Shown here piece by piece: positions 6,573 to 64,000 of a DNA stretch of 64,000 bases. This stretch comes from Alphaproteobacteria bacterium (GTDB lineage: Bacteria > Pseudomonadota > Alphaproteobacteria > CACIAM-22H2). Made by a program: the position numbers and the translations under genes. Every line of letters starts with the position of its first letter. Positions within the stretch are counted from its first letter, which is position 1. Below the pieces are notes generated by a model that worked only from the letters and a program-made list of their open reading frames with translations, was not told where the DNA came from and made no database searches. Where the stretch lies: contig JAWLHE010000004.1 in NCBI GenBank assembly GCA_041690495.1, positions 341,730 to 405,729 of the forward strand, read 5' to 3'.

Positions 6573-7685
6573 TTACCGTCGCGCTTGCATCAGCACGTAG
6601 GCGGCGTGCCACAGCCGGACTCCATCCGCCAGCCCGCCGGGGCCGAGATCGGCGTGCGCCAGGCTGTCGAGGAGAGCGACCCGTGCCTGCGCACTGGGCA
6701 GCGCCCGGGCCAGCGATGTCGTCTCGGTATAGGGAATGATGACATCGTCGCGGCCGTGGATCAGGATGAAATCGGCGCGCAGAACGCCGAGGTCGCGGCC
6801 GGCGAGGTTGAGGCCGGCGAGATCGGCCTGTACGGCGCGCGGCAGGGCCGCGATCAGGCCCGGGACGCGGTCCGGATCGCGGTTGGCGAGCAGGTCGACG
6901 ACCGCCTGCCCTTCCGGCCCGAGCCTGGCCGTCAGGTCGGCGATATCGGCATCGAGATCGTCGAGCTTGCGCCGCGCCATCGCCGCCAGCGCCGCGCGAT
7001 CGCGCGCGTCGTCCAGCCGCTCGGCATTGGCGAGCACGAACACCCATTTGCCGTAAGCATTGGGCACGCCGCGCCGCCATGGCGCGGTTGCTTCCTCGCG
7101 AAAGAATCCGGTCGTGAAGAACGTGACGACCGAAGTCGTGTCGTAGTAACCGCCGATCGCGACGATGACGTCGATGCGCGGCGCGAGGTCCGGAGCAAGG
7201 GCGGCGAGCACCGCCGGCCCGACAGCATAGGACACGCCGGCGATGCCGACCGGTCCCTTCCCTTCGGGACGCGCCAGCAGGTCGCGGACGGCGTCGGCGA
7301 CCAGCTCGCCGTCGTCAGCGGACACGCGCTGCGCCTGGAAATTCGGCACGTCCGGCACCATCACGGCGAACTGCGCGCGTGACAGGGCGCGCGCGAAGTC
7401 GACGACGCGCGCATCGCGCCGCCCGGCGCGCCCGAGACCCGGCATCAGGACGAGGGCCGCCCGCGGCGCGCGCGGCCGATAGAGGTCCGCCGCCAGCACT
7501 TCGCCGCGATGGGTCCAGGTCACGACGTGGCGACCCGATGCTTCGGCCGGGCCCGCCGCACCCGCCTGCAGATCGCGCAGCAGTCCGAGCGCATCGACCG
7601 CATCTTCCATCGGCGCGCAGGCGCCCAGCGCAAGGGCAAGCGCAACAATGCGCAGCCCCAGCGACGGCGGACGCGCGCGTGCCAT
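6573..7685 (-). CDS. alpha/beta hydrolase, predicted lipoprotein/secreted
   Basis: 370 aa with an N-terminal signal/lipobox-like LALALGAC. The alpha/beta-hydrolase core (VLMPGLG...GVSYAVG) is present. It is the last gene of the operon and adjacent to the lactonase stop. Confidence 0.65.
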   Translation of the reverse strand: MARARPPSLGLRIVALALALGACAPMEDAVDALGLLRDLQAGAAGPAEASGRHVVTWTHRGEVLAADLYRPRAPRAALVLMPGLGRAGRRDARVVDFARALSRAQFAVMVPDVPNFQAQRVSADDGELVADAVRDLLARPEGKGPVGIAGVSYAVGPAVLAALAPDLAPRIDVIVAIGGYYDTTSVVTFFTTGFFREEATAPWRRGVPNAYGKWVFVLANAERLDDARDRAALAAMARRKLDDLDADIADLTARLGPEGQAVVDLLANRDPDRVPGLIAALPRAVQADLAGLNLAGRDLGVLRADFILIHGRDDVIIPYTETTSLARALPSAQARVALLDSLAHADLGPGGLADGVRLWHAAYVLMQARR

Positions 7686-8600
7686 CTACATGTGCGAATA
7701 CATCGGCCGGCCTGCGGCCGGCATGGCGCAACACAGGACCGTTCCCGTCGCCGATTCGGTGATGAACAGCGTCCTGTTCCCGGCACCGCCGAAGGCGACA
7801 TTGGTCGCGAAGCTGTCCTCGGGCAGCTCGATCAGATGCGTCGGCCGGCCGCGCGCATCGAAGCGCCAGACGCCGATGCCGAGATGGCACACGACGATGC
7901 CGCCTTCGACGTCGGCCGCCATCCCGTCGGGTCCCGACAGGCCGCCCGAGAGCTGGATCCAGGTGCCCGCTTTCGACACGCTGCCGTCGGCCATCAGCGG
8001 CAGCCGCCACACCGCCATGGCGCGCGTCACCGCGACATAGACCTGGCTCTCGGCCGGATTGAGCACAATGCCGTTCGGGCTCGGGACCGTCGCGATCAGG
8101 CAGTCGAGCCGGCCCGAGGCGTGCAGGCGGAAGACGCGCCCGGTCGGATCGTGCCAGCCGGTTTGCCCCTGGTCGGTGAAATAGAGATCGCCGTTCGTCG
8201 CGAAGACGAGATCGTTGACGCCCTTGAAGCCTTCCGAATGGCGCGTCTCGAGCAGCGCCGCGATCTTGCCGCTTGCGGGATCGAGCCGCATGAGCCCGCG
8301 CCTGTAGTCGGTAATGACGACGTGACCGTCCCTGTGGATCTTGAGCCCGTTGGGCCAGCCGTCATACTCGGTGACCAAGGTCCAGGTCCCGTCGGGGGTC
8401 ACGCGGAACACGCGGCCGAACGGAATGTCGGTGACGTACAGATTGCCGGAGCGGTCGAAGCCCGGACCTTCGAGGAAGCAGTCGATGGCCTCGCCGCCGC
8501 GGTTGGCATCGGCCCAGGCGGTCCGCACCCTGCGCCGGAACTTGTCCGGCATGCGGCTGAATACGCGCGCCTCGATGCGCGCCGGCGGCGCGAAGCACAT
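7686..8600 (-). CDS. SMP-30/gluconolactonase/LRE family protein
   Basis: Beta-propeller lactonase-like repeats (NGLKIHRDGHVVITD, GDLYFTDQG, NGIVLNPAESQVYVA). The start is chosen at MCFAPP, where the GNAT stop and this ATG share one base (TGATG). An alternative start is MPDKF at 8552. Confidence 0.75.
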   Translation of the reverse strand: MCFAPPARIEARVFSRMPDKFRRRVRTAWADANRGGEAIDCFLEGPGFDRSGNLYVTDIPFGRVFRVTPDGTWTLVTEYDGWPNGLKIHRDGHVVITDYRRGLMRLDPASGKIAALLETRHSEGFKGVNDLVFATNGDLYFTDQGQTGWHDPTGRVFRLHASGRLDCLIATVPSPNGIVLNPAESQVYVAVTRAMAVWRLPLMADGSVSKAGTWIQLSGGLSGPDGMAADVEGGIVVCHLGIGVWRFDARGRPTHLIELPEDSFATNVAFGGAGNRTLFITESATGTVLCCAMPAAGRPMYSHM

Positions 8601-11653: not shown

Positions 11654-11812
11654 GCATCTCCTTCGCCGGACGAAGCTGTTCGGCCGGCCGGACTGGGCTT
11701 AAACGATCGGGCCGCATGCGGTCAATCGCAGATGCTTGAGCCGGTCCGCCCGGCAGCGCGGCGCTGCCGAGGCGGCTATTCCCGTCCGGCTGCCATCCGC
11801 AAATCGTCGCGG

Positions 11813-12328
11813 TCAGGTTTCAGTGCTGGGATGGGCGAAGTGGGCCGGCGCGTCGCCGGGCGCGTCCTTGGGCGGCAGCGCAGGCTGCGGCAGCGGATAG
11901 AATTTCGGCTTCTGATTGTCCCAGCTGCGCTCGAACGGCAGCCGCATGCCCAGCCCGGTGCCCTGCTGCTCGGCCTCGCGGCGCGCGTCCTGGAGCTGCT
12001 TCGCGAGCTCGAGGCTCCAGGGCAGCATATAGGCGCGCGGCTCGGGAATATCGGGCATCTGCAGCCAGACGTATATCGCCTCGCCTTCCCGGACGGTTGC
12101 CCCCAGTACGTTCGCCTCTTCCGTCGAGGCGCGGATCCATTCGAGCGATACCGGCTTGGGCTTCGAAAGCAGGGTGGCAAAGCTCGCATAGCTCAGCGGC
12201 ACGAAGATGGCCGCGACCGCGAGTGCCGCCGACCGGACCGCCACCTTGCGCGGCGCCCAGATGCTGATGCTGGTGAGCACGCAGGCGACGGCGAGCGCAC
12301 CGCCGGCGAAATAGGTCAGGTCGTTCAT
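11813..12328 (-). CDS. hypothetical membrane protein (2 N-terminal TM helices plus about 115 aa soluble domain), third gene of MotA/ExbB-like operon
   Basis: 171 aa ORF lying 10 bp after the ExbD-like gene. Hydrophobic segments are at residues 6-26 and 33-53. No recognisable motif. Confidence 0.5.
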   Translation of the reverse strand: MNDLTYFAGGALAVACVLTSISIWAPRKVAVRSAALAVAAIFVPLSYASFATLLSKPKPVSLEWIRASTEEANVLGATVREGEAIYVWLQMPDIPEPRAYMLPWSLELAKQLQDARREAEQQGTGLGMRLPFERSWDNQKPKFYPLPQPALPPKDAPGDAPAHFAHPSTET

Positions 12329-12338
12329 GAGCCGACCG

Positions 12339-12953
12339 TCAGCGCTTGACCGCTGCCGAGCGCAGCGGCTTGTAGAGATTGTGCACGCTGTCCGACTTCA
12401 GCCGGCCGTTCTGGTCGAGTGCGAAGCGGAAACCGGTCAGCTCCTCGCCTTCGCGCCGCAGGGTCATCTTCGTGGTCAGCAGCGGCCGGGCGCTCGCCTG
12501 CGCCGTCGGCTTGGTGCTGACGGTCATCGTTACGTCGACCGGCTGTCCGTTCGGATTCCTGTAGAGATGGACGTTGGCCGTATACTCGCCCGGCGGCAGC
12601 CCGCGACTGAACGAGATTTCGTGGTTCTGGGTGGTCGGATCGCCGACCCGGCCGAGATCGTCGCGCAGCAGATTGAAGATCGCGCCGCCCTTGTTCGAGT
12701 AGCCGACCGGCACGTCCCCTGGCGCCTGGACCCACAGGTCGATGTCGGAATCGTGACCCTCCGGCCAACGGACCTCGACGATTACGTTGCCCGGTGCGGC
12801 GACGCTTTCGACGGCGTTCGCCTGTGCCGGCGGGTTCAGATGCGGCAGCAGCAGGACGACGATGGCAACGAAGCCGCACAGCGCCAATGTGATGACGTCG
12901 CGGAAGACCGTGCCGCTGTCGTCGTCGTCACCGAAGAGGTCATTGTTCGACAT
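12339..12953 (-). CDS. ExbD/TolR/MotB-like single-pass membrane protein with divergent periplasmic domain
   Basis: 204 aa with a short cytoplasmic N-terminus then a TM helix RDVITLALCGFVAIVVLLL. An Asp sits at the cytoplasmic edge in the same pattern as ExbD/TolR (IDVMLVLL). It overlaps the MotA-like gene by 14 bp. Confidence 0.55.
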   Translation of the reverse strand: MSNNDLFGDDDDSGTVFRDVITLALCGFVAIVVLLLPHLNPPAQANAVESVAAPGNVIVEVRWPEGHDSDIDLWVQAPGDVPVGYSNKGGAIFNLLRDDLGRVGDPTTQNHEISFSRGLPPGEYTANVHLYRNPNGQPVDVTMTVSTKPTAQASARPLLTTKMTLRREGEELTGFRFALDQNGRLKSDSVHNLYKPLRSAAVKR

Positions 12954-13692
12954 CGGCCTCTCCGCGCTCGATGATCGCGGTGACCAGCCGCATCGTGCCG
13001 GACACCAGCACGTGATGGCAGACCATCAGCCAGATGTTGAGCACGGCGCCGACGAGCGTCGTGTAGAGAGCGACCGACATGCCGAGGATCAGCTTCGAGA
13101 TCATCGGCGAGATCGCCTTCGCATCCGCCGCGCCGTCCGGCTTGACGCCGGACAGGGCGATGATGAAACCGACCACGGTGCCGATCAGGCCGAGAATGAC
13201 GAGCGTTCCGGCAATATGGCGAACGATCGCAGTACGCACCATCAGCTTCGATTTCAGGGTTGCCGCGAGCAGCGCACGGCTGTCCCCCTGACGGCCGCGG
13301 ATTTGCGCAAGGTACTGGCCTGCACGCGAGTTGGGCGACGGCCATTTGGCATGCGCCTCGTTCAGCTCCCAGCTGACGCGGATCACCTGCATCGTGCAGA
13401 TAAACAGGCCCGCGAGAAAGACGCCGGCGATGGCGGTGCACAGATGAGTAGGATCGGCGGCGCCGATCGTATCGATCCAGCCGTGCAGATGGGCAGCCGT
13501 CAATGCCGCGCAGGCAGCAAGGTTGATCAACCCGAACCGGAACAGCAAAAGATAGTCGTAGGCATAGCCCTTGACCGGCTTGAACGCCTGACGAACCCTT
13601 TCCTGCTGCGCGTGGACGTCGAGGCCGGCAGCCGCAGTTGCGCCGCTCGCCGGGGCAGGAGACTGCCGCCACCGTGTCGGATCGAATGCCAT
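12940..13692 (-). CDS. MotA/TolQ/ExbB proton-channel family protein
   Basis: 250 aa with 4 hydrophobic segments. The conserved C-terminal channel motifs LGLIGTVVGFIIAL and ALYTTLVGAVLNIW are present. A GGGGAG RBS precedes it. Confidence 0.75.
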   Translation of the reverse strand: MAFDPTRWRQSPAPASGATAAAGLDVHAQQERVRQAFKPVKGYAYDYLLLFRFGLINLAACAALTAAHLHGWIDTIGAADPTHLCTAIAGVFLAGLFICTMQVIRVSWELNEAHAKWPSPNSRAGQYLAQIRGRQGDSRALLAATLKSKLMVRTAIVRHIAGTLVILGLIGTVVGFIIALSGVKPDGAADAKAISPMISKLILGMSVALYTTLVGAVLNIWLMVCHHVLVSGTMRLVTAIIERGEADVEQ

Positions 13693-13737
13693 GCCAAATC
13701 TCCCCGGACTGATCCGAGGTGTAGTTAACGCCCGGTA

Positions 13738-13770
13738 GGCTTAAGGTCGGCTTAAAGCTTGGCTAATTTT
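13738..13770. promoter_or_regulatory. tandem GGCTTAA-type direct repeats (GGCTTAAGGTC GGCTTAAAGCTT GGCTAATTTT) in the promoter region of the MotA/ExbB-like operon
   Basis: Read directly. They sit 45-80 bp upstream of the MotA-like start codon on the coding (minus) side. Confidence 0.3.
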
Positions 13771-56925: not shown

Positions 56926-57015
56926 GGAGGGATGGCCGAGTGGCTTAAGGCGCACGCTTGGAAAGCGTGTTTACGGGCAACCGTAACGTGGGTTCGAATC
57001 CCACTCCCTCCGCCA
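56926..57015 (+). tRNA. tRNA-Ser (anticodon GGA), 90 nt with long variable arm
   Basis: Hand-folded cloverleaf. Acceptor GGAGGGA/TCCCTCC is followed by discriminator G and encoded CCA. The anticodon stem CACGC/GCGTG carries loop TTGGAAA. The variable arm is 18 nt. The T-arm is GTGGG-TTCGAAT-CCCAC. Confidence 0.9.
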
Positions 57016-57139
57016 GTCATATCCGTAAACTATAACTAAATCAATGTATTATAGTGGAATTCGTTAACGGTTGGCGGGCATACCCACGCCCGTACCCACA
57101 ACGCCTCCACCGCTACTATCGGAGCCTGCACCGATACTG

Positions 57140-58312
57140 ATGTCGAAGAAAGTTCTGTTTCAGGGCGTTACCCCCGACAATCATTTAGCTGCCGTCCGGC
57201 AGGTCCTTTCGATTCCAGATCCGCAAAGGCTCCTCATAAGTGCAGCGTTCATGAATGAAGCGGGCTTGACGTTGCTCGAAGAAGCCCTGGCCCCGGTCGC
57301 CACTCACACAACAATCCTCGCCGGGATTCGCAACGGCATTACGTCGGCCCAAGGGCTTCGGAAGAGCCTCGCGATTGGCTGCTCCACTTACGCGGTGGAT
57401 ACTGGATCGCGCACAGTGATCTTTCACCCGAAAATCTACTATTCGCGGAACGAGAATGAGGCGCGCCTTATCGTCGGCAGCGCGAACCTCACGATTGGGG
57501 GCCTAAACGGAAACATCGAGGCGAGTCTGCTCCTGACGCTTGATCTTGATGACGAGGAAAACACGGCGCTTGCCGACGAGTTGGAAGAGAAGATCGACGG
57601 GATGATCGCCGAATACGAAGAGCATGTCTTCGTTGTGCCGGACGAAGCGATGATCCAGCGGCTGCTCGATTCCGGCAGACTCATCGATGAATCCCTTGTC
57701 GCTGCGCCCACGCCGTCCGGCGCATCAAGGGATCGCGATCTCGATACCGTGCCACGAATGAAGCTCAAGACGAGGGCTATCCTACGACCGCGTGTGCCAT
57801 CTCTTCCGGCACCGCCTGCACCCGCACCGCCCGCCCCTGCGCCTGCAGGCATTGCGGCACCGGTCCGGAAGAGGCTCGCGCTCGTGTGGGAAAGCAGCCC
57901 GCTCACGCGGCGTTATCTGACCATTCCGACCGGAGAGAACACGAACCCGACCGGTTCGATGCTCTTCGCGAAAGGGGCAATGAAGGATATCGACCAGAGG
58001 CACTATTTCCGGGACGAGGTGTTTGCCGGACTGGACTGGCACTTCGACACGGCTGCCGGACGCGAGCATATGGAACGGGCGGAAGCCCGGATTCAGCTCG
58101 TCATTCGGGACGTGGATTATGGCGTTTTCACGCTGCGGCTTTCGCATAACAGCCGCACCGATACGCGCGCCTACGAGCAGCGCAACAGCATGACACAGCT
58201 TCATTGGGGAGAGGCGCGTCCGTTGGTCGCGCGCGAAGACCTTCTCGGTCGGACAATGTATCTTTATCGGGACGAAGTAGACGAAGGCTTGTTCGTGATG
58301 GAAATCGACTAG
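57140..58312 (+). CDS. phospholipase-D-family (single HKD) nuclease with Pro/Ala linker and C-terminal domain of unknown fold; candidate restriction endonuclease
   Basis: Internal ATG MSKKVLFQG of ORF 57071..58312. The HKD motif TVIFHPKIYYSRNENEARLIVGSANLTIGGL fits HxK(x4)D...GSxN. A linker PAPPAPAPPAPAPAG is followed by a about 170 aa C-terminal domain. The gene converges on the MTase with a 4-bp overlap. Confidence 0.6.
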   Translation: MSKKVLFQGVTPDNHLAAVRQVLSIPDPQRLLISAAFMNEAGLTLLEEALAPVATHTTILAGIRNGITSAQGLRKSLAIGCSTYAVDTGSRTVIFHPKIYYSRNENEARLIVGSANLTIGGLNGNIEASLLLTLDLDDEENTALADELEEKIDGMIAEYEEHVFVVPDEAMIQRLLDSGRLIDESLVAAPTPSGASRDRDLDTVPRMKLKTRAILRPRVPSLPAPPAPAPPAPAPAGIAAPVRKRLALVWESSPLTRRYLTIPTGENTNPTGSMLFAKGAMKDIDQRHYFRDEVFAGLDWHFDTAAGREHMERAEARIQLVIRDVDYGVFTLRLSHNSRTDTRAYEQRNSMTQLHWGEARPLVAREDLLGRTMYLYRDEVDEGLFVMEID

Positions 58313-59943
58313 GCCGCCTCGGAGGAAACCCGGTGCCGCCTATCCCGTAGCTTCTTCCAGCCACTCATCAGTTCGTCCTGATCCGGCTTGGAAACACCGA
58401 TCGCGCCAAGAACAATCCTGCCCTGCCGCTCGAGAACCGCATCCATCGGCATCGACCGTATTGCCTTATCGAGAGATTCCAGTTTCGGTTCGATCTTTTT
58501 CGGGGCTGGAACTAGAAGCCTTTCGATTTCCGACGGGATAAGTTCAAGAACGCCACCGCCGTAATGACGGCCCTCAAGTTCAGCGCTCAGGGCCGTCAGC
58601 GGATTCATAAACCCAAATACAAGCTGGTCCGCCGAACCTTCCTTAACCGTGATGCGGTAGGCGGTGTCAGTCGTGTAGGCGCGCAGTCTGTTTAGAATCA
58701 GACGCGGCGTGTCGTGGCAGCGTTTAAGCATGCCGACTTCGGTCGCATAAACAGAGGGTACGGTGTACCAAGGGCTGCGGATACGGCACTTGTAGCGGGT
58801 ATGAAGCTTTTCGTCCTCGCCCTTGCGGATATAGGCTTTGCCGGTGCTGGATTTTTCTACGCTGGTGTCCTGAAACCAGACGAAGTTGGTAGGATTGCCC
58901 TTGGCGGCATTAGCCCTGTGCTGCGCCTCGTCATAGATTACGCCGGGGCAATGCTCGCTGCGCCCAAACATGGGGTGCGCCCATTTGCCCAGCCTAAATC
59001 GCTCAATGACTTCATCATTAACAAGGAAGAAGCTGTTGGCACCCGTCACGATGCCAACATCAACTTCTGCAATCTCGTCAAACCGGCTGACGGCATGCTC
59101 GTCGATCAGCCCGTCGAGCAAAGAGCGCGTATGCGGCTCCAATAGCGCCCGCGTCCACTTTCCCTCAACGGTCTTCCCGTTGATCGACTGGGGAGCGTTG
59201 AATATTTCCTCAGGGTTCTGCTTGATGAAGTCGCGTCCGCGCACTGGATAAATGCCGAGTCCCTCAGCGCGGTCGCTCGGTCCTCGCTTTTTTTCCACGA
59301 GAAGCAGAACAGCCCCTTGAAGCGTCCCCGGAAACCAAAGGTCCTCGGGATCGATGACGACCAGCCGCCGGGCGTTAGCGCCTAAATATGAGCGCAGCGA
59401 CTGCGCGTGCGTGACATGGATGATCTCGGCGGGCACAACCATTGCCAGCCGACCGCCGGGGCGCAGCAGGGCAAACGATGCCAGAATGAACGGCACCCAG
59501 GCGTTGGTGTGCTTTGTGAATTTGCAGGCCAGTTCGCTAAAGATCCGCTCAGCGCGGCCTTGAAACGGCGGCGGCAGATACTGATAACGAATAAAGGGCG
59601 GATTCCCGAGCACTGCGTCGAAGCGCGCCCCTTCATCGCCGAGAGCGTCGATTGCCCAGCCCAGAAAATCACCATCCCTGATGGTGACACGCGAGAGGCC
59701 GGAGCTCTTTGCACGCTTGGAAGCCTTCCGGGCCTCGGCGCTGTTGATCTCAAAGCCCGTGACCAAAGGATTGCCAAGAGTGTCTGCGATCTTGTCGAAG
59801 AAGACCCCGTCGCCGCAACTCGGCTCCAGGATCGATTCCGGGGCGCCTTTTGCGATCCAGCGCACCAGAAAACCCGCAAGATCGTCGGGCGTATAGTACC
59901 CGCCGCGAAGTTTCTGCTCTGTCTGAAATTCTCTGAAATTCAT
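58309..59943 (-). CDS. N6-adenine DNA methyltransferase, gamma class (motif I before motif IV), with C-terminal target-recognition region
   Basis: Internal ATG MNFREFQTEQ. Motif I is ILEPSCGDGVFF (FxGxG) and motif IV is LGNPPFIRY (NPPF/Y). About 300 aa of C-terminal extension follows. Confidence 0.8.
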   Translation of the reverse strand: MNFREFQTEQKLRGGYYTPDDLAGFLVRWIAKGAPESILEPSCGDGVFFDKIADTLGNPLVTGFEINSAEARKASKRAKSSGLSRVTIRDGDFLGWAIDALGDEGARFDAVLGNPPFIRYQYLPPPFQGRAERIFSELACKFTKHTNAWVPFILASFALLRPGGRLAMVVPAEIIHVTHAQSLRSYLGANARRLVVIDPEDLWFPGTLQGAVLLLVEKKRGPSDRAEGLGIYPVRGRDFIKQNPEEIFNAPQSINGKTVEGKWTRALLEPHTRSLLDGLIDEHAVSRFDEIAEVDVGIVTGANSFFLVNDEVIERFRLGKWAHPMFGRSEHCPGVIYDEAQHRANAAKGNPTNFVWFQDTSVEKSSTGKAYIRKGEDEKLHTRYKCRIRSPWYTVPSVYATEVGMLKRCHDTPRLILNRLRAYTTDTAYRITVKEGSADQLVFGFMNPLTALSAELEGRHYGGGVLELIPSEIERLLVPAPKKIEPKLESLDKAIRSMPMDAVLERQGRIVLGAIGVSKPDQDELMSGWKKLRDRRHRVSSEAA

Positions 59944-60128
59944 TTGGCCGATCCCTTCTTTGGGGTTTGAGGGCTCGGCGTGCGCCGTTCTTCGAGGTAA
60001 CGTCCGGCGGCCTGGATAAACCATTCCTTGAGGGTGGAGTCCTCCATAGCCAAAGCGCTGTAGAGCCGCCGCTTGAGCGTGGGGTCTACGTCAACAACGA
60101 TTCGGCCTGACTCTCCTTTGGGCATCAA
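59940..60128 (-). CDS. ribbon-helix-helix (CopG/Arc-like) DNA-binding protein, candidate controller of the MTase
   Basis: 62 aa. RIVVDVDPTLKRRLYSALAMEDSTLKEWFIQAAGRYLEE is a beta-strand followed by two helices. Its TGA overlaps the MTase ATG (ATGA at 59940-59943). Confidence 0.55.
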   Translation of the reverse strand: MMPKGESGRIVVDVDPTLKRRLYSALAMEDSTLKEWFIQAAGRYLEERRTPSPQTPKKGSAK

Positions 60129-60155
60129 TGGGTTCCAACCCGACTCAGATAACTT

Positions 60156-60173
60156 ATGTTACATAGCTAACAT
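60156..60173. promoter_or_regulatory. perfect inverted repeat ATGTTA-CATAGC-TAACAT about 28 bp upstream of the RHH gene start; candidate operator
   Basis: Read directly from the sequence in an AT-rich intergenic region (60129-60435). Confidence 0.4.
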
Positions 60174-60435
60174 GAGTCGCGTGGAATCGTCCAGCGGAGA
60201 TGTCGATCCATTCTAGGCCATATCATGGCGCACCACTTGTCATGGCGAACGCCGTCCTCAATCCAACGGGGCTTGAATCGAGCTATTCCTTAATCATCGG
60301 GGCATTGACGTTCTCGTTGTAACACAAGCTCTCGTGTCCTGTGTTGCAGGGCGATCGATAAAGAAGCAAACCAGCTTGCCAGCGTAGAGAGGCAAGAGCG
60401 CCTTCAACGTGTGTAGGTTCCCATCGACGGATCGG

Positions 60436-61563
60436 TTATGAAGAACCCAAGATGCGCTCAGCGGCCGCCAATCCCTCCCGAAGTTTGGCAATGGTTTCGA
60501 GCCGCTCGGCGGGTGCGCTACCAAGGCCCTGAATTATCTCCGCCTGCCGCTCACATGGGACTTGGCCATAGCTCATGAATGTGGTCATTACGTTGTCGTG
60601 GCCGACATTCTGACTCCAGGCCTTGAACTCCTCGGGAGTCCGGCACCGCTGCTGTCCGAGCCGGATCAGCGTTTTACGGAATCTGTGCGGCGGGAAGTAC
60701 GGCATGCCGCTGCTGGTGAACGCTTCGCGGAATATGCTTCGGATCGGCGACGCGTTGCTCCAGTGCTTGCGGTCGAGTCCATCTGAGGCGAACAAGCCGT
60801 TGCTATCGACGCAGAGCCGAGTAGCCGGAAAAAGAGGATCGTCAGGCCCCCATAGAAGCGAGGTCTGCAAGTAACCGACCCAATCGGCCACGATCTCTTG
60901 AACGTCCCCTCCGACCGGAAAGAAGTACGTCACAAATGTTTTGCTGAACTTGGTGCGGACCTCACGGGCGTCCTGCACTACCCGTCCCTTAGACAATTCC
61001 ACGTGTTTCAGCTTGAGAGATGCCAACGCGCCGTCGCGCACTCCGGTAAGTATCGTGAAGGCAATGAGAGCTCGATTCCGCCGCTCGATAGCCGTAGCCC
61101 GTGGCATGGAAGCAAGGACGTATTTGACCTGCTCGACCGTGGGAACGGGCTGTTCCCGGGTCGCCTTCGCCACTCGCATCTCCTTTTCGGAAAGATTGAA
61201 ATACTCCGCGTCTGCATAGCGAAGCCGGGAACGGAACCCCGGTTCTCCCGCGAGCCATTGGAAGAACTTCTTGAGCGCGGCGAGGGTCGAATATCGGCTG
61301 GCCTCGCTCAGTCGCCCTTTGGCGCGCCGGCTGTCCTGCTGTGCGAGCTGCTTCTTGAACGCGATCGCCTGTTGGATGTGGAACGACCGGAAGTCCCGAT
61401 ATTTCGTGTAAACCTCGAACTTATGCAGCGCGGATGCGACTCCATCCAGAGAGGAGTCGCTGTAACGCTTGGCCTCGCGCAGATATGAAAAGTACCGTCG
61501 CTTGACGCGTTCATTGTTTGGGTTGTTCGTCTGCATTGCCTTCACCCGCGTTCTCCAAGTCAC
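60436..61563 (-). CDS. tyrosine-type site-specific recombinase/integrase (375 aa)
   Basis: The catalytic region has ...ILTGVRDGALASL... (Arg), HRFRKTLIRLG (HxxR) and a C-terminal ...MSYGQV (Tyr). Confidence 0.75.
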   Translation of the reverse strand: MTWRTRVKAMQTNNPNNERVKRRYFSYLREAKRYSDSSLDGVASALHKFEVYTKYRDFRSFHIQQAIAFKKQLAQQDSRRAKGRLSEASRYSTLAALKKFFQWLAGEPGFRSRLRYADAEYFNLSEKEMRVAKATREQPVPTVEQVKYVLASMPRATAIERRNRALIAFTILTGVRDGALASLKLKHVELSKGRVVQDAREVRTKFSKTFVTYFFPVGGDVQEIVADWVGYLQTSLLWGPDDPLFPATRLCVDSNGLFASDGLDRKHWSNASPIRSIFREAFTSSGMPYFPPHRFRKTLIRLGQQRCRTPEEFKAWSQNVGHDNVMTTFMSYGQVPCERQAEIIQGLGSAPAERLETIAKLREGLAAAERILGSS

Positions 61564-62020
61564 AACTCACGCACTGTCCGTTACGACCTTCTATGTGCTG
61601 TTCGCCCTCCGGATACGTCACGTCCATATCGGACGCAATCGTCGCCAACCTGCAACGAGAGACCCGGCGATAGATCAGAGTCGAGCAGTCTGGACACAAG
61701 GCTCGAAGATTCCCGCCGGACGCCGTCAATGGCAGATACTCCGCCATGCCTTCAGCCGGCCGCCTGGGCGCGCGACACTTAACGCAATAGATTTCGCCCG
61801 GCGCACAGACTCGCCTTGCAGCAACACGTCGCTTTTGTAGGAAGGCCTGGAGATCGGCACCAAAAATCAACGTGGGCCGGCGGCGGTCGATGGCGGGCAG
61901 ACCGGACCTCAGCCAATTGCGAACCGTATTCTTATGAACGTCAAATAAGCGGCCGACCTCTTCGACCGTATAGTTTCGATGGATCTTGACCAGCCGAGGG
62001 TTGGGATTGCGGCGCCCCAT
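61511..62020 (-). CDS. HTH DNA-binding protein with C-terminal Cys-rich (zinc-ribbon-like) region
   Basis: An N-terminal HTH YTVEEVGRLFDVHKNTVRNWLRSGLPA is followed by Cys pairs CVKC...CPDC...CVSC. The 3' end overlaps the integrase start by about 26-53 bp. Confidence 0.5.
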   Translation of the reverse strand: MGRRNPNPRLVKIHRNYTVEEVGRLFDVHKNTVRNWLRSGLPAIDRRRPTLIFGADLQAFLQKRRVAARRVCAPGEIYCVKCRAPRRPAEGMAEYLPLTASGGNLRALCPDCSTLIYRRVSRCRLATIASDMDVTYPEGEQHIEGRNGQCVSCDLENAGEGNADEQPKQ

Positions 62021-62047
62021 CGCGGACCAGAATGCGATAGGCGTATA

Positions 62048-62245
62048 CTAAACGCGTCGCTTTTGGGTCTGACTGGCCTCACGTAGTGCGTTGAACCAGG
62101 CGTCGCCATCCACCGTCGCGATGATTGAACGCCTGCCAATCTTCGTGAGGTGCAGGCGCCCCTCAGCGATCTCTTGGTAAAGCCGCGTGCGGCTGATGCC
62201 GTAATGCTCGCAAGCTTCGACAATCGAAAATCCGGCCTTGTTCAT
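62048..62245 (-). CDS. AlpA/excisionase-like small HTH protein
   Basis: 65 aa. FSIVEACEHYGISRTRLYQEIAEGRLHLTKIGRRSII is an MerR/AlpA-like HTH typical of island excisionases. Confidence 0.55.
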   Translation of the reverse strand: MNKAGFSIVEACEHYGISRTRLYQEIAEGRLHLTKIGRRSIIATVDGDAWFNALREASQTQKRRV

Positions 62246-62330
62246 GTCCACCGTTCCTTTCTGCGGGATACAACCGCGTGTCGGTGAACACAATGTCGTC
62301 CAGAGAACGCCCGAAGAATATATGGTCAAA

Positions 62331-63146
62331 TCAGGATTTGCGAAAATCGCTCGCGTACATGCGGAGGATGCGCAAACGCAACGCATTGACGCTTGGGCCG
62401 TCGCCGTCCCTTCGTAGATTCAATAGCGCCAATCCCGCCACTACGAAGCGCAGCAGAGGGCCAGCCGCTCGCCCTTGTATCGAGACCGATGTTTGAACGC
62501 GGCGCCCAAGCACGTCTATCCAAATTCGCAACATGCCGGCCATAGCATCATTGAGGGGTTGACCGGTCCAAGGGTCGAGCCATCTTTCGAGGTCGTCCGC
62601 GCGTTTCCCCTTCCGCGCGCGAGTGTGGCTTTGGAGGTTGAGCGCCCACGCCCGAAGTTGGCGAATGGCGCTTATGTTGTCGCGCAACTGCGAATCGCTT
62701 TGGTAGTCCTTGAACACCTCACCGCCAATCGAGAATGTCCTCGGCGGATGGTGCTCGAAGCCATTGCGGCGTTCGCCATCTCGTTCTGCTTCCCATCGAA
62801 GCCCGTCACGTACTTGGCGGGGAACATCGATCAACTCACTGTGGCCACCGACTCCTATCGCACTAAGTAGCTTATCGGCAGCCGCCCCGATTGCGTGAAA
62901 CCGCTTTTCCAGTTTGCTCGGTGACAGGTCATTCAGATGTTGCAGATTGATTTGCGTCAGCTCATGGATGACTTCGAGTCGTTTAACGATTGCCACCGCA
63001 CGTAGGACCTCGGCCCTCTTACCGGTCTCGTGGTCGTCAATCTCAATGCTGCCCGGTGGAATTGGAGCCGCAGCACGAAGGACGCGGAGAACGTCCTCTC
63101 GGGCAAACTTTCCTGTGTAGACCGGTTCTTCCATTACGCCAGTCAC
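62331..63146 (-). CDS. hypothetical protein (271 aa), island cargo
   Basis: Long ORF with balanced composition. No recognisable motif. Confidence 0.45.
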   Translation of the reverse strand: MTGVMEEPVYTGKFAREDVLRVLRAAAPIPPGSIEIDDHETGKRAEVLRAVAIVKRLEVIHELTQINLQHLNDLSPSKLEKRFHAIGAAADKLLSAIGVGGHSELIDVPRQVRDGLRWEAERDGERRNGFEHHPPRTFSIGGEVFKDYQSDSQLRDNISAIRQLRAWALNLQSHTRARKGKRADDLERWLDPWTGQPLNDAMAGMLRIWIDVLGRRVQTSVSIQGRAAGPLLRFVVAGLALLNLRRDGDGPSVNALRLRILRMYASDFRKS

Positions 63147-63173
63147 GGCTCAGAAAGCGAGCAAGCGCGCTTT

Positions 63174-64000
63174 TTAGGCGCGAAGCCTGACGACACTCCC
63201 GCTCTTTCGCGGCGTGCCGCAGAACCTCGCCCACTCTGACATGAGGCGCCGTCGCTTCTCCAGGAGATCGCCGCGCCGATAGGCAGCCTCTACTTTGTCG
63301 GGAATAGAATGCGCTAGAGCCTGCTCCGCAACCTCGCGCGGATAGTTGGTCCGCTCAGCCGCCCAGTCGCGGAACGTAGACCGGAACCCGTGCACGGTCA
63401 GGTCGGACCGACCCATGCGATTCAACAGCGCAAGCAGCGCCATGTTGGAAAGCGGCTTACCGGACTTGCCGCCCGGGAATACCCAATCCGACAGTTGCTC
63501 CTTTTTCAGGGCTAACAAAATCCGAATGGCCCGGTCGGGAAGGGGAATACGGTGTTCGCGCCCCGCCTTAATACGGTCAGCAGGGATCGTCCACATGGCG
63601 TTCGGAAGATCGATCTCGCTCCAGCGCGCCCCGATGGTTTCGCTGGTTCGGGTGGCCGTCAAAATCAGAAACTCCAACGCTTGGGCAGCTACCCCGTCCT
63701 GGTCGCGAAGCTGACCTATGAACGGCCCGATGTCGTCATAGGGCAGCGCTGGTCGGTGAACCACCTTTTGCACCTTAGACCGGTTGGGCAGGAGGTTTTC
63801 CAGATGGCCCTTCCAGCGCGCCGGATTGTCTCCGGTGCGGTGCCCGCGCGCCGCCGCCCAGTCCAGTACCGACTCGATGCGCCCGCGCACGCGACTGGCC
63901 GTCTCGGTCTTGGTGGCCCAGATCGGCTCCAACGCCTTCGCGACTAGGCCCGTGTCAATTTCCTTGACCGAGAGCCGCCCGAATACCGGCGAGGCATAGG
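63174..64000 (-). CDS. int: P4-type tyrosine integrase, partial (N-terminus beyond window end)
   Basis: ...LILTATRTSETIGARWSEIDL...HGFRSTFRDWA...AYRRGD... gives the R...HxxR...Y catalytic set. The reading frame stays open past 64000. Confidence 0.85.
   Translation of the reverse strand, partial: YASPVFGRLSVKEIDTGLVAKALEPIWATKTETASRVRGRIESVLDWAAARGHRTGDNPARWKGHLENLLPNRSKVQKVVHRPALPYDDIGPFIGQLRDQDGVAAQALEFLILTATRTSETIGARWSEIDLPNAMWTIPADRIKAGREHRIPLPDRAIRILLALKKEQLSDWVFPGGKSGKPLSNMALLALLNRMGRSDLTVHGFRSTFRDWAAERTNYPREVAEQALAHSIPDKVEAAYRRGDLLEKRRRLMSEWARFCGTPRKSGSVVRLRA

What the first reader, a model, noticed from the sequence alone, without database searches (positions are those of the whole stretch)
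11813..13770. Orphan MotA/ExbB-like proton channel operon with an ExbD/TolR-like partner carrying a novel periplasmic domain and a third unknown membrane protein
Three tightly packed minus-strand genes (14-bp overlap, 10-bp gap) form the operon. The first is a 250-aa MotA/TolQ/ExbB-family channel with the conserved LGxIGTVxG and ALxTT motifs. The second is a 204-aa single-pass protein whose TM helix starts with an Asp in the same pattern as the essential ExbD/TolR/MotB Asp (RDVITLAL vs IDVMLVLL). Its 150-aa periplasmic domain is unlike ExbD, TolR or the OmpA-like domain of MotB. The third is a 171-aa protein with two TM helices and a soluble tail. There is no TonB, TolA/Pal, TonB-dependent receptor or flagellar/gliding gene nearby. 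This resembles the stator-unit-driven modules recently found in anti-phage systems such as Zorya, and other orphan ion-driven machines, but matches none I recognise. Tandem GGCTTAA-type repeats sit in its promoter.
Basis: partly seen in the sequence, partly recalled or inferred. Interest (0 to 1): 0.7.

Follow-up and report, generated by a model that had tools for sequence, protein, structure and literature searches.

The report
Uncharacterised MotA/ExbB-type trio shared with phages
Three tightly packed genes encode a previously undescribed relative of the ion-driven motors behind flagella and TonB uptake; the trio occurs in hundreds of alphaproteobacterial genomes and in their phages, often behind a cell-cycle-regulator (CtrA)-type DNA box, and its function is unknown.

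Summary
Three minus-strand genes (12940-13692, 12339-12953, 11813-12328) sit with a 14-bp overlap and a 10-bp gap.

- **Gene 1** passes Pfam MotA_ExbB and keeps the invariant TM3 and TM4 threonines.
- **Gene 2** matches no family. It has one TM helix with an Asp kept in 94% of 316 relatives. Its periplasmic domain is a beta-sandwich with a near-invariant acidic cluster, weakly like PPC, DUF2135 and TerD domains. It is not ExbD, TolR or MotB.
- **Gene 3** also matches no family. It has a TM hairpin, a small domain and a conserved proline-rich tail.

The trio keeps its order in 79 of 81 loci fetched from at least 596 species genomes. No fourth gene is conserved, and there is no TonB, receptor, flagellar or defence context.

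- Minimal versions of all three genes occur in Rhizobium and Sinorhizobium phages (16-3 p038/p040/p042) and in 41 IMG/VR contigs, sometimes behind a periplasmic trypsin-like protease.
- The promoter "repeat" is TTAA-N7-TTAA, the core of the CtrA box. It is strongly enriched upstream of gene 1 (16 exact sites against 0.4 expected).

Most likely this is a new family of ion-driven 5:2-type envelope machines. The physiological role is unknown.

The parts
13741..13755 (-). Direct repeat TTAAGCCGACCTTAA, i.e. TTAA-N7-TTAA, the core of a CtrA-type box. It lies in the 113-bp intergenic region, centred about 56 bp upstream of the g1 ATG.
   Evidence: it is the only TTAA-N7-TTAA in the 64-kb window. The same element sits at the same position in relative L003. 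Family-wide enrichment is shown.
13724..13728 (-). Additional TTAAC half-site 12 bp downstream of the box. L003 has one at the same spacing.
   Evidence: Read. Not tested statistically.
13700..13705 (-). Shine-Dalgarno-like GGGGAG, 7 nt upstream of the g1 ATG.
   Evidence: Sequence.
12940..13692 (-). g1: a 250-aa, 4-TM MotA/TolQ/ExbB-family channel subunit. It has a short cytoplasmic loop of about 50 aa and a short C-terminal tail.
   Evidence: Pfam PF01618 scores 36.6 bits against a cut-off of 22.9. In 82 family members G168, G171, T172, G175, F176, A208, L209, T212, L213 and G215 are invariant. The best PDB sequence hits are ZorA-like and PomA cores, and both are weak.
12339..12953 (-). g2: a 204-aa B-subunit-like protein. 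It has an acidic N-terminus, a TM helix (residues 13-39), a short linker, and a periplasmic beta-sandwich (residues 56-198) with a near-invariant acidic/polar cluster.
12897..12899 (-). Codon of Asp19 of g2, the candidate ion-binding residue at the cytoplasmic end of the TM helix.
   Evidence: Kept in 297 of 316 relatives, including 41 of 45 viral ones. It aligns with MotB D32, ExbD D25 and the ZorB Asp in profile comparisons, which are not significant on their own.
11813..12328 (-). g3: a 171-aa protein with a TM hairpin (4-24, 29-55), a small alpha/beta domain (about 71-145) and a conserved Pro-rich tail (PKFYxLPQPxLPPK).
   Evidence: No family hit. AF2 model, pLDDT 70. Alignment A3 gives the invariant residues. 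Charge distribution favours a cytoplasmic loop and a periplasmic C-terminus. Fold searches were uninformative.
11739..11791 (-). GC-rich hairpin 22-76 nt after the g3 stop codon. It is the probable end of the transcript and has no U tract.
   Evidence: -42.1 kcal/mol for the 81-nt stretch, z -2.58. The consensus terminator scan found nothing.

Best explanation
The three genes encode one inner-membrane complex of the MotA/ExbB (5:2 rotary motor) kind.

- g1 would form the ion-conducting ring, by analogy a pentamer.
- g2 would be the inner B subunit, by analogy a dimer. Its TM Asp19 would take up the translocated ion next to the invariant g1 threonines T172 and T212.
- g2 carries a membrane-proximal periplasmic beta-sandwich, probably Ca2+-binding.
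- g3 is a third subunit, a TM hairpin whose small domain and conserved Pro-rich tail face the periplasm.

g1 has almost no cytoplasmic mass, and in phages it has none. The work of the machine must therefore be delivered in the periplasm or envelope, not to a cytoplasmic rotor.

In many alphaproteobacteria the operon appears to be driven from a promoter carrying a CtrA-type box. That would make it part of the cell-cycle/motility regulon. Phages of alphaproteobacteria carry stripped-down copies, sometimes with a secreted trypsin-like protease, presumably to impose the same envelope activity during infection.

Shown here: family membership of g1, residue conservation, synteny, phage occurrence and motif enrichment. 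Inferred: stoichiometry, ion coupling, topology, Ca2+ binding, CtrA binding and the envelope target.
For: - **g1.** Passes Pfam MotA_ExbB. It keeps the TM3 GxxGT and TM4 ALxTT residues invariant in 82 relatives.
- **g2 Asp.** Kept in 94% of 316 relatives. It aligns in register with the MotB, ExbD and ZorB Asp.
- **Coupling and synteny.** The 14-bp overlap and 10-bp gap suggest translational coupling. Strict g1-g2-g3 order holds in 79 of 81 loci, and the two exceptions are contig ends. Most of 41 viral loci keep the order too. This argues for one complex.
- **Self-contained unit.** No fourth gene is conserved.
- **No cytoplasmic output.** Phage g1 homologues are as small as 129-140 aa. 16-3 p038 has a loop of about 10 aa between TM2 and TM3.
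- **g2 domain.** A beta-sandwich with weak TerD, PPC and DUF2135 similarity and an invariant Asp/Asn/Glu cluster.
- **g3 topology.** The charge bias puts the inter-helix loop inside the cell.
- **CtrA-type box.**
  - There is one site in the window, exactly in the g1 promoter, conserved in L003.
  - Exact sites sit upstream of 16 of 82 trios against 0.42 expected. Sites with at most 1 mismatch sit upstream of 44 of 82, against 1.5 expected.
  - Only the N7 spacing is enriched, and the extended consensus is TTAA-N7-TTAACC(A/T).
Against: - No complex was modelled or measured. Stoichiometry and ion coupling rest on analogy.
- The similarities of g2 to MotB, ExbD and ZorB are confined to about 24 residues of TM helix and are statistically insignificant (HHsuite probability below 4%).
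- g3 has no structural relative.
- The window's own box reads TTAAG, not TTAAC, in the second half-site.
- Azospirillum and 38 of the 82 trios lack a site within 1 mismatch.
- No CtrA binding data exist for any of these promoters.
- Phage copies have no such box.
- The physiological target is unknown.
Confidence: 0.55

Rival explanations
1. The trio is an anti-phage or superinfection-exclusion system working like Zorya. A stator-like complex senses envelope perturbation by an incoming phage and blocks it. Phage copies would protect the infected cell or lysogen against competitors.
For: - The best partial matches of g1 are ZorA models.
- The top PDB hit of the g2 profile is ZorB, at E 1.1.
- Temperate phage 16-3 carries the genes in its accessory region near immX.
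- Some genomes hold two or more copies.
Against: - The ZorA hits cover only the generic TM3-TM4 core and lie far below the cut-offs, at 21 bits against 100-750.
- g1 lacks the long ZorA tail.
- No ZorC/D/E-like or other effector gene is conserved nearby.
- g2 and g3 have no PADLOC hit.
- Flanks are housekeeping genes that differ between lineages while the proteins stay 60-85% identical. That pattern is atypical for defence islands.
- Virulent T4-like and other lytic phages carry the trio among replication genes.
- A CtrA-type box points to cell-cycle control.
Confidence: 0.12
2. The trio is a divergent Ton/Tol-type energiser. g1/g2 replace ExbBD or TolQR, and g3 is a short TonB/TolA analogue that carries force to an outer-membrane or peptidoglycan-associated partner encoded elsewhere.
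For: - The layout is a three-gene operon of channel, Asp-bearing single-pass partner, and a membrane-anchored periplasmic protein with a conserved Pro-rich segment.
- Non-canonical partners of TolQ-like rings, the TPH-vWA proteins, have been proposed in the literature (PMC12204202).
Against: - No ExbD hit in any of 32 diverse g2 members.
- g3 has a TM hairpin rather than one helix with an SHLS/His motif, and it has no TonB_C-like domain.
- The g3 periplasmic part is only about 115 aa, with a tail of about 25 residues. By my own estimate that is short for spanning the periplasm.
- No TonB-dependent receptor, Pal or TolB is linked in 81 loci.
Confidence: 0.08
3. The complex is not a motor but a gated ion leak. 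g1/g2 form a channel whose opening, controlled by the periplasmic domains of g2 and g3, tunes or collapses the membrane potential. Possible uses are phage takeover or lysis timing, or a cell-cycle checkpoint.
For: - Phage g1 homologues are bare 4-TM bundles without any cytoplasmic domain.
- In RHph_X2_25 the genes lie about 3 kb downstream of a lysozyme gene on the same strand.
- Nothing identifies an output partner.
Against: The periplasmic domains of g2 and g3 are more conserved than the channel itself: g2 is 60-85% identical across orders, with an invariant polar cluster. That fits a specific ligand or partner better than a simple gate. All characterised MotA/ExbB-family complexes do mechanical work (established knowledge; review PMC9389320 listed).
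Confidence: 0.1
4. The trio is an accessory of a CtrA-controlled polar organelle (flagellum, Tad pilus or holdfast), for example an auxiliary stator-like unit. Flagellotropic or pilitropic phages would copy it to manipulate that organelle.
For: - A CtrA-type box is enriched upstream.
- CtrA ancestrally controls motility in Alphaproteobacteria (established knowledge).
- CtrA sites and homologues are known in alphaproteobacterial phages that use pili or flagella (PMC9437464, listed, abstract only).
Against: - g1 lacks the large cytoplasmic torque-generating domain of MotA, and g2 lacks plug and OmpA domains.
- No flagellar, pilus or chemotaxis gene is conserved next to the trio in 81 loci.
- The phage trios carry no CtrA box.
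Confidence: 0.1

Closest known systems
ExbB-ExbD-TonB and TolQ-TolR-TolA (Ton and Tol energisers)
   Same: Both are three-gene operons. Each has a PF01618 channel subunit with conserved TM threonines and a single-pass partner with an essential-type Asp near the cytoplasmic end of its TM helix, joined by a short linker to a compact periplasmic domain. Each also has a third inner-membrane-anchored periplasmic protein with a Pro-rich segment.
   Different: g1 has 4 TM helices, like MotA, whereas ExbB and TolQ have 3. The g2 periplasmic domain is a beta-sandwich and gives no ExbD Pfam hit. g3 is a TM hairpin without an SHLS motif or a TonB/TolA C-terminal domain. It is not linked to receptors or to Pal/TolB.
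MotAB / PomAB flagellar stator units
   Same: The A subunit has 4 TM helices. The TM3 and TM4 motifs align with PomA. The B-subunit TM pattern is [FY]-x-D-[FV]-[MI]-T (g2 FRDVIT against MotB YADFMT).
   Different: There is no large cytoplasmic torque-generating domain and no OmpA-like peptidoglycan-binding domain. There is no convincing plug: 1 of 32 members gives a weak MotB_plug hit. No flagellar genes are nearby.
ZorAB core of the Zorya anti-phage system
   Same: ZorA gives the highest-scoring, though weak, matches to the g1 core. ZorB gives the top match to the g2 TM helix.
   Different: g1 has no long ZorA cytoplasmic tail. There are no ZorC, ZorD or ZorE genes. Scores are far below the family cut-offs. 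The genes are not in defence islands, and phages carry them too.
TolQ-like rings paired with transpore-helix vWA proteins (Williams-Jones et al. 2025, PMC12204202)
   Same: A MotA/ExbB-family gene lacks any tolR/exbD/motB neighbour. Its partner instead carries an Asp-bearing transpore-type helix fused to an unrelated periplasmic domain.
   Different: The periplasmic domain here is a PPC/TerD-like beta-sandwich, not vWA. The partner is a single gene rather than a heterologous pair. A conserved third subunit (g3) is present, and phage homologues exist.
GldLM / PorLM motors of gliding and type IX secretion
   Same: Both are ion-driven 5:2-type complexes. The inner subunit has one TM helix and beta-sandwich periplasmic domains, and the output is periplasmic. 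This comparison rests on established knowledge and the review PMC9389320.
   Different: There is no sequence relationship. GldL has 2 TM helices. GldM spans the whole periplasm with four domains. These motors are restricted to Bacteroidota and are linked to T9SS genes.
PPC (pre-peptidase C-terminal), DUF2135 and TerD Ca2+-binding beta-sandwiches
   Same: The g2 domain shares the DxDL[WYH]-x-x-P-x-G ... G-x-Y-x-x-x-V pattern. It also shows weak fold and profile similarity.
   Different: It falls below every family threshold. It has its own invariant LLRDDxG loop and extra C-terminal strands, and it is fused to a stator-type TM helix.

Membership tests
MotA/TolQ/ExbB proton channel family (PF01618), for g1 | Match to the family HMM above the curated threshold | tested here: met
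   36.6 bits against a cut-off of 22.9, covering residues 147-238. All 120 closest homologues carry PF01618.
MotA/TolQ/ExbB proton channel family (PF01618), for g1 | Conserved channel-lining Thr residues in the last two TM helices (GxxGT and ALxTT) | tested here: met
   T172 and T212, with G168, G171, G175, A208, L209 and G215, are invariant in 82 relatives.
MotA/TolQ/ExbB proton channel family (PF01618), for g1 | Pentameric ring enclosing a dimer of the partner's TM helices (5:2) | not testable with these tools
   No multimer prediction or experiment was available.
ExbD/TolR (PF02472), for g2 | Match to the ExbD HMM, and an ExbD-type alpha/beta periplasmic domain | tested here: not met
   No ExbD hit at E <= 1 for g2 or for any of 32 diverse relatives. 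The AF2 model is an all-beta sandwich.
ExbD/TolR/MotB-type B subunits, for g2 | Single N-terminal TM helix with a conserved Asp near its cytoplasmic end | tested here: met
   The helix spans residues 13-39. D19 is kept in 297 of 316 relatives. Alignments are Asp-to-Asp.
MotB/PomB, for g2 | C-terminal OmpA-like peptidoglycan-binding domain and periplasmic plug helix | tested here: not met
   No OmpA hit was found. MotB_plug appears in 1 of 32 members, at E 0.0087.
TonB/TolA force transducers, for g3 | Single N-terminal TM helix with an SHLS/His motif, a long periplasm-spanning linker, and a TonB_C/TolA_III domain | tested here: not met
   g3 has two TM helices. Alignment A3 shows no His-containing motif in them. 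Pfam gave no hit. The periplasmic part is only about 115 aa.
Ton system | Genomic or regulon linkage to TonB-dependent receptors | tested here: not met
   No conserved neighbour was found beyond the trio in 81 loci. The window flanks are metabolic. Regulon-level linkage elsewhere in the genome could not be tested.
Zorya (ZorAB plus ZorC/D/E) | Full-length ZorA with long C-terminal tail, ZorB, and adjacent effector genes | tested here: not met
   NCBIfam ZorA models score at most 21 bits against cut-offs of 100-750. The PADLOC hits cover only about 70 residues of g1, and g2 and g3 have none. No effector gene is adjacent.
CtrA regulon (Alphaproteobacteria) | TTAA-N7-TTAAC box in the promoter | tested here: met
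   The window has TTAA-N7-TTAAG at 13741-13755, the only core site in 64 kb. Canonical TTAA-N7-TTAACC(A/T) appears in many relatives, with 16 exact sites against 0.42 expected, and only the N7 spacing is enriched.
CtrA regulon (Alphaproteobacteria) | CtrA binding and CtrA-dependent transcription | not testable with these tools
   This needs ChIP-seq, EMSA or depletion transcriptomics. No paper found links these genes to CtrA.
PPC / DUF2135 / TerD-like Ca2+-binding beta-sandwich, for the g2 periplasmic domain | Family HMM match or strong fold match | tested here: inconclusive

The most novel reading that the evidence does not exclude
The trio is a distinct, ancient class of ion-driven periplasmic machine with its own B subunit and third subunit. 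In Alphaproteobacteria it performs a CtrA-timed envelope task, for example at the division site or pole. Phages have captured and miniaturised it, down to a roughly 130-aa 4-TM ring subunit, and sometimes couple it to a secreted protease. They would use it to remodel the host envelope for exclusion of rivals or for egress.
Probability: 0.3. Interest if true: 0.8.

Novelty: new variant of a known kind. Interest (0 to 1): 0.68.

Why it matters
Only a handful of functional classes of MotA/ExbB-type motors are known: Mot/Pom, Ton, Tol, Agl, Gld/Por and Zorya. Each new class has revealed a new way of delivering membrane energy to the envelope.

This family is large. g2 has 4,826 clusters at 90% identity and 1,481 at 50% identity. 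It occurs in at least 596 species genomes, including the model Azospirillum brasilense. In public records only g1 is sometimes given the generic "MotA/TolQ/ExbB proton channel family" name; g2 and g3 are unnamed or "hypothetical protein".

Its presence in well-known phages, including 16-3 and T4-like rhizobiophages, would make it the first stator-like module I am aware of that is routinely phage-encoded. The phage g1 proteins would be the smallest members of the family, which suits them for structural and mechanistic work.

The CtrA-type box gives a concrete, testable entry point to its physiology.

Tried and rejected
- **Family libraries.** Pfam, NCBIfam, PADLOC and PHROGs gave nothing for g2 and g3. 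PHROGs also gave nothing for 16-3 p038-p042.
- **Exact look-ups.** The look-up of encoding contigs had no record for the window's g2. The cluster look-up gave no names.
- **Genome scan.** The scan with the diverse alignment A2 failed for lack of a conserved stretch. I repeated it with A1.
- **Fold searches.**
  - The afdb50 library was unavailable.
  - Foldseek for g3 found nothing at E <= 0.001.
- **Flank clustering.** It first suggested extra genes linked to g1. These turned out to be shadow ORFs of high-GC DNA plus glmU/glmS in a subset of related MAGs, not a conserved partner.
- **Consensus scans.** The sigma-70 and terminator scans found nothing useful.
- **Rfam.** It found no RNA element near the operon.
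- **Literature.** Four searches found no description of this trio and no CtrA link.
- **Prophage remnant reading, rejected.** No phage gene lies within about 5 kb. The only mobile island, at tRNA-Ser, is 43 kb away.
- **Polysaccharide-lyase-like catalytic reading of the g2 cluster, dropped.** I considered it from memory of PL7 motifs, but no fold hit supports it.
Full report
**The observation**

The three ORFs exist exactly as described: g1 at 12940-13692, g2 at 12339-12953 and g3 at 11813-12328, all on the minus strand. They have a 14-bp overlap and a 10-bp gap. A GGGGAG Shine-Dalgarno-like sequence precedes the g1 ATG. A stable GC-rich hairpin follows the g3 stop.

The neighbours within about 5 kb are a CoA-transferase, an enoyl-CoA hydratase, a TRAP DctPQM transporter and a pirin. 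No Ton, Tol, OmpA, flagellar or gliding gene is nearby.

**The proteins**

*g1* passes the Pfam MotA_ExbB threshold, at 36.6 bits against 22.9. In 82 relatives the TM3 motif (G168, G171, T172, G175, F176) and the TM4 motif (A208, L209, T212, L213, G215) are invariant. These positions align with the PomA "MGMIGTLVG" and "ALLTTLYGA" segments. g1 has four TM helices, a cytoplasmic loop of about 50 aa and a 25-aa tail. It therefore lacks the cytoplasmic domain of flagellar MotA. Its best hits to specific subfamilies (ZorA, PomA, ExbB2) cover only this core and lie far below their cut-offs.

*g2* hits no family in four libraries. The AF2 model (pLDDT 71) shows a TM helix at 13-39, a linker of about 15 residues and a beta-sandwich at 56-198.

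Asp19, at the cytoplasmic end of the helix, is kept in 297 of 316 relatives. Profile comparisons with ZorB, E. coli MotB and E. coli ExbD align only this helix, Asp to Asp, without statistical significance.

The domain carries a striking near-invariant polar cluster: W63, D70, D72, W74, R97, D98, D99, G101, D105, N110, E112, R117, N127 and H129. I read this as a metal (Ca2+) or ligand site. That is an inference.

*g3* also hits no family. AF2 (pLDDT 70) gives a TM hairpin (4-24, 29-55), a small alpha/beta domain and a disordered tail. The tail carries a conserved PKFYxLPQPxLPPK motif. The inter-helix loop has a net charge of +2.9 and the N-terminus -0.7. This favours a periplasmic C-terminus. 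Fold searches found no relative.

**Distribution and synteny**

The g2 family has 4,826 members at E <= 0.001 among clusters at 90% identity. It has 1,481 representatives at 50% identity. Where a source names them at all, they are called "hypothetical protein", and none has a Pfam domain.

The best 80 are mostly Azospirillum spp., Geminicoccaceae, Kiloniellales, Sneathiellales and unclassified Alphaproteobacteria, with a few MAGs labelled otherwise.

- In 79 of 81 loci, g1, g2 and g3 lie in the same order. The two exceptions are contig ends.
- Clustering all flanking ORFs found no fourth conserved gene. Apparent extras were shadow ORFs or glmU/glmS in one group of MAGs.
- Flanks differ between lineages, while g2 stays 60-85% identical.
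- Some genomes carry two trios.
- In A. brasilense the trio sits on the 1.75-2 Mb chromid.

**Phage copies (new)**

A tblastn search of GenBank phages found g2 relatives in 29 records. All are Rhizobium or Sinorhizobium phages of several unrelated types: temperate 16-3 and its kin, 60-68-kb phages, and 153-171-kb T4-like Pootjesviridae.

In 16-3 the region reads as follows:

| Gene | Identity |
|---|---|
| p036 | trypsin-like serine protease, annotated as typically periplasmic |
| p038, p039, p040, p041, p042 | the trio homologues plus two small intervening genes |

Family HMMs built from the chromosomal genes identify three of these:

| Phage gene | Matches | E-value | Note |
|---|---|---|---|
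| p038 (138 aa) | g1 | 6e-9 | four TM helices, virtually no cytoplasmic loop |
| p040 | g2 | 1e-46 | Asp retained |
| p042 | g3 | 3e-13 | |

IMG/VR holds 41 further loci with GC content from 0.35 to 0.69. Most keep the g1-g2-g3 order, with g1 of only 129-210 aa. Several are flanked by phage primase, DNA polymerase, helicase, terminase or tail genes. A trypsin-like protease gene lies directly upstream of g1 in nine viral loci and in no chromosomal locus. In lytic phages the trio sits among replication genes.

**The promoter repeat (reinterpreted)**

The two TTAAGCC copies form TTAA-N7-TTAA at 13741-13755. This is the only such site in the 64-kb window. It lies in the 113-bp g1 leader. The 75-85%-identical relative L003 has the same element at the same distance, followed by the same TTAAC half-site.

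Counts across 82 chromosomal trios:

| Match to TTAA-N7-TTAA upstream of g1 | Observed | Expected from the rest of the loci |
|---|---|---|
| Exact | 16 | 0.42 |
| At most 1 mismatch | 44 | 1.5 |

With spacers N3 to N12, only N7 is enriched: 16 exact sites against 0-1 for each other spacer. On the coding strand the extended consensus is TTAA-N7-TTAACC(A/T). The sites cluster about 235-245 bp upstream of the first TM codon.

TTAA-N7-TTAAC, with half-site TTAACCAT, is the established recognition sequence of the alphaproteobacterial cell-cycle regulator CtrA. That identification rests on my own knowledge. The four loci labelled Gammaproteobacteria, Azospirillum and the phage copies all lack the box. 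CtrA binding itself is untested.

**Mechanism**

The best-supported reading is one inner-membrane complex of the MotA/ExbB 5:2 type. A g1 ring would surround the g2 TM helices, with ion transfer through D19 next to T172 and T212. Output would go to the periplasm through the membrane-proximal g2 sandwich and through g3.

The phage versions show that no cytoplasmic domain is needed, so a rotor-type cytoplasmic output is excluded. The conserved g3 tail peptide could dock on g2, as TonB-linker peptides dock on ExbD. This is speculation.

The physiological target is unknown. The CtrA-type box suggests a cell-cycle-timed or motility-regulon envelope function in the bacteria. The phage linkage to a secreted protease suggests envelope remodelling during infection.

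**Comparison with known systems and novelty**

The trio works like Ton, Tol, Mot and Zor cores, but it fails the membership tests of each:
- no ExbD fold
- no OmpA domain
- no TonB/TolA features
- no Zorya tail or effectors

Conceptually, the nearest published case is the TolQ-like ring with transpore-helix vWA partners (PMC12204202). That case has a different domain and no third subunit. Four literature searches found no description of this trio. I therefore class it as a new variant (a new family) of a known kind of machine.

**Limits**

- Stoichiometry, ion coupling, topology, Ca2+ binding and CtrA control are inferences.
- Both structural models are of moderate confidence. The most conserved g2 loop (residues 89-108) is poorly modelled.
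- The genome survey shows only the best 80 of at least 596 loci.

Noticed in passing
window 56926-64000: A tRNA-Ser(GGA) lies at 56926-57015. Behind it is a low-GC stretch (0.57-0.60, against about 0.65 elsewhere). The stretch encodes a PLD-like nuclease, an Eco57I-type N6-methyltransferase, two tyrosine integrases and an HTH_17 excisionase-like protein. This looks like an integrated island carrying a restriction-modification system. It is 43 kb from the trio and unrelated to it.
   Followed up: partly
window 11739-11791 (-): A GC-rich hairpin lies 22-76 nt after the g3 stop, with core stem CGGCAGCG/CGCTGCCG at 11751-11769. It has no U tract. It is the probable operon end, and the consensus terminator scan missed it.
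   Followed up: partly
L019 7208-9103 and 14658-16547; L073 1937-3761 and 7397-9493; L029 and L058 (same MAG); Azospirillum chromids: Some genomes carry two paralogous trios, in two cases on one contig. Each of the seven Azospirillum replicons hit in the plasmid collection shows two matching places.
   Followed up: partly
L126 (Rhizobium phage RHph_X2_25) 6547-7089: An HNH homing-endonuclease gene is inserted between the g2 and g3 homologues. A Seg-like endonuclease gene lies upstream of the protease gene.
   Followed up: no
L125 5241-6140 (16-3 p036), L126, L094, L103, L108, L111, L115, L118, L122: A trypsin-like serine protease gene, annotated in 16-3 as typically periplasmic, sits directly upstream of the phage g1 homologue in nine viral loci. 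It is found in none of the chromosomal loci.
   Followed up: partly
L125 6702-6992 (p039) and 7522-7707 (p041): In phage 16-3, small genes with no detectable relatives in any other fetched locus are interleaved between the three trio homologues.
   Followed up: no
L019, L027, L037, L039, L053, L056, L060, L067, L070, L077: In one group of related soil Alphaproteobacteria MAGs the trio lies next to glmU (confirmed by Pfam in L067 and L037) and a glmS-like ORF (read from its N-terminal sequence). These are cell-wall precursor genes. The linkage is lineage-restricted.
   Followed up: partly
window 11696-11702 (-): A third TTAAGCC copy lies between the trio and the downstream enoyl-CoA hydratase gene. 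The heptamer occurs 6 times in the window against 1.8 expected, and 1 of 100 shuffles reached 6.
   Followed up: no
L028, L031, L040, L041, L062, L076, L080: Close trio homologues (59-62% g2 identity) sit on MAG contigs labelled Nitrospiraceae, Gammaproteobacteria, Phycisphaeraceae and Patescibacteria. This could reflect horizontal transfer or mis-binning, and I did not resolve which.
   Followed up: no
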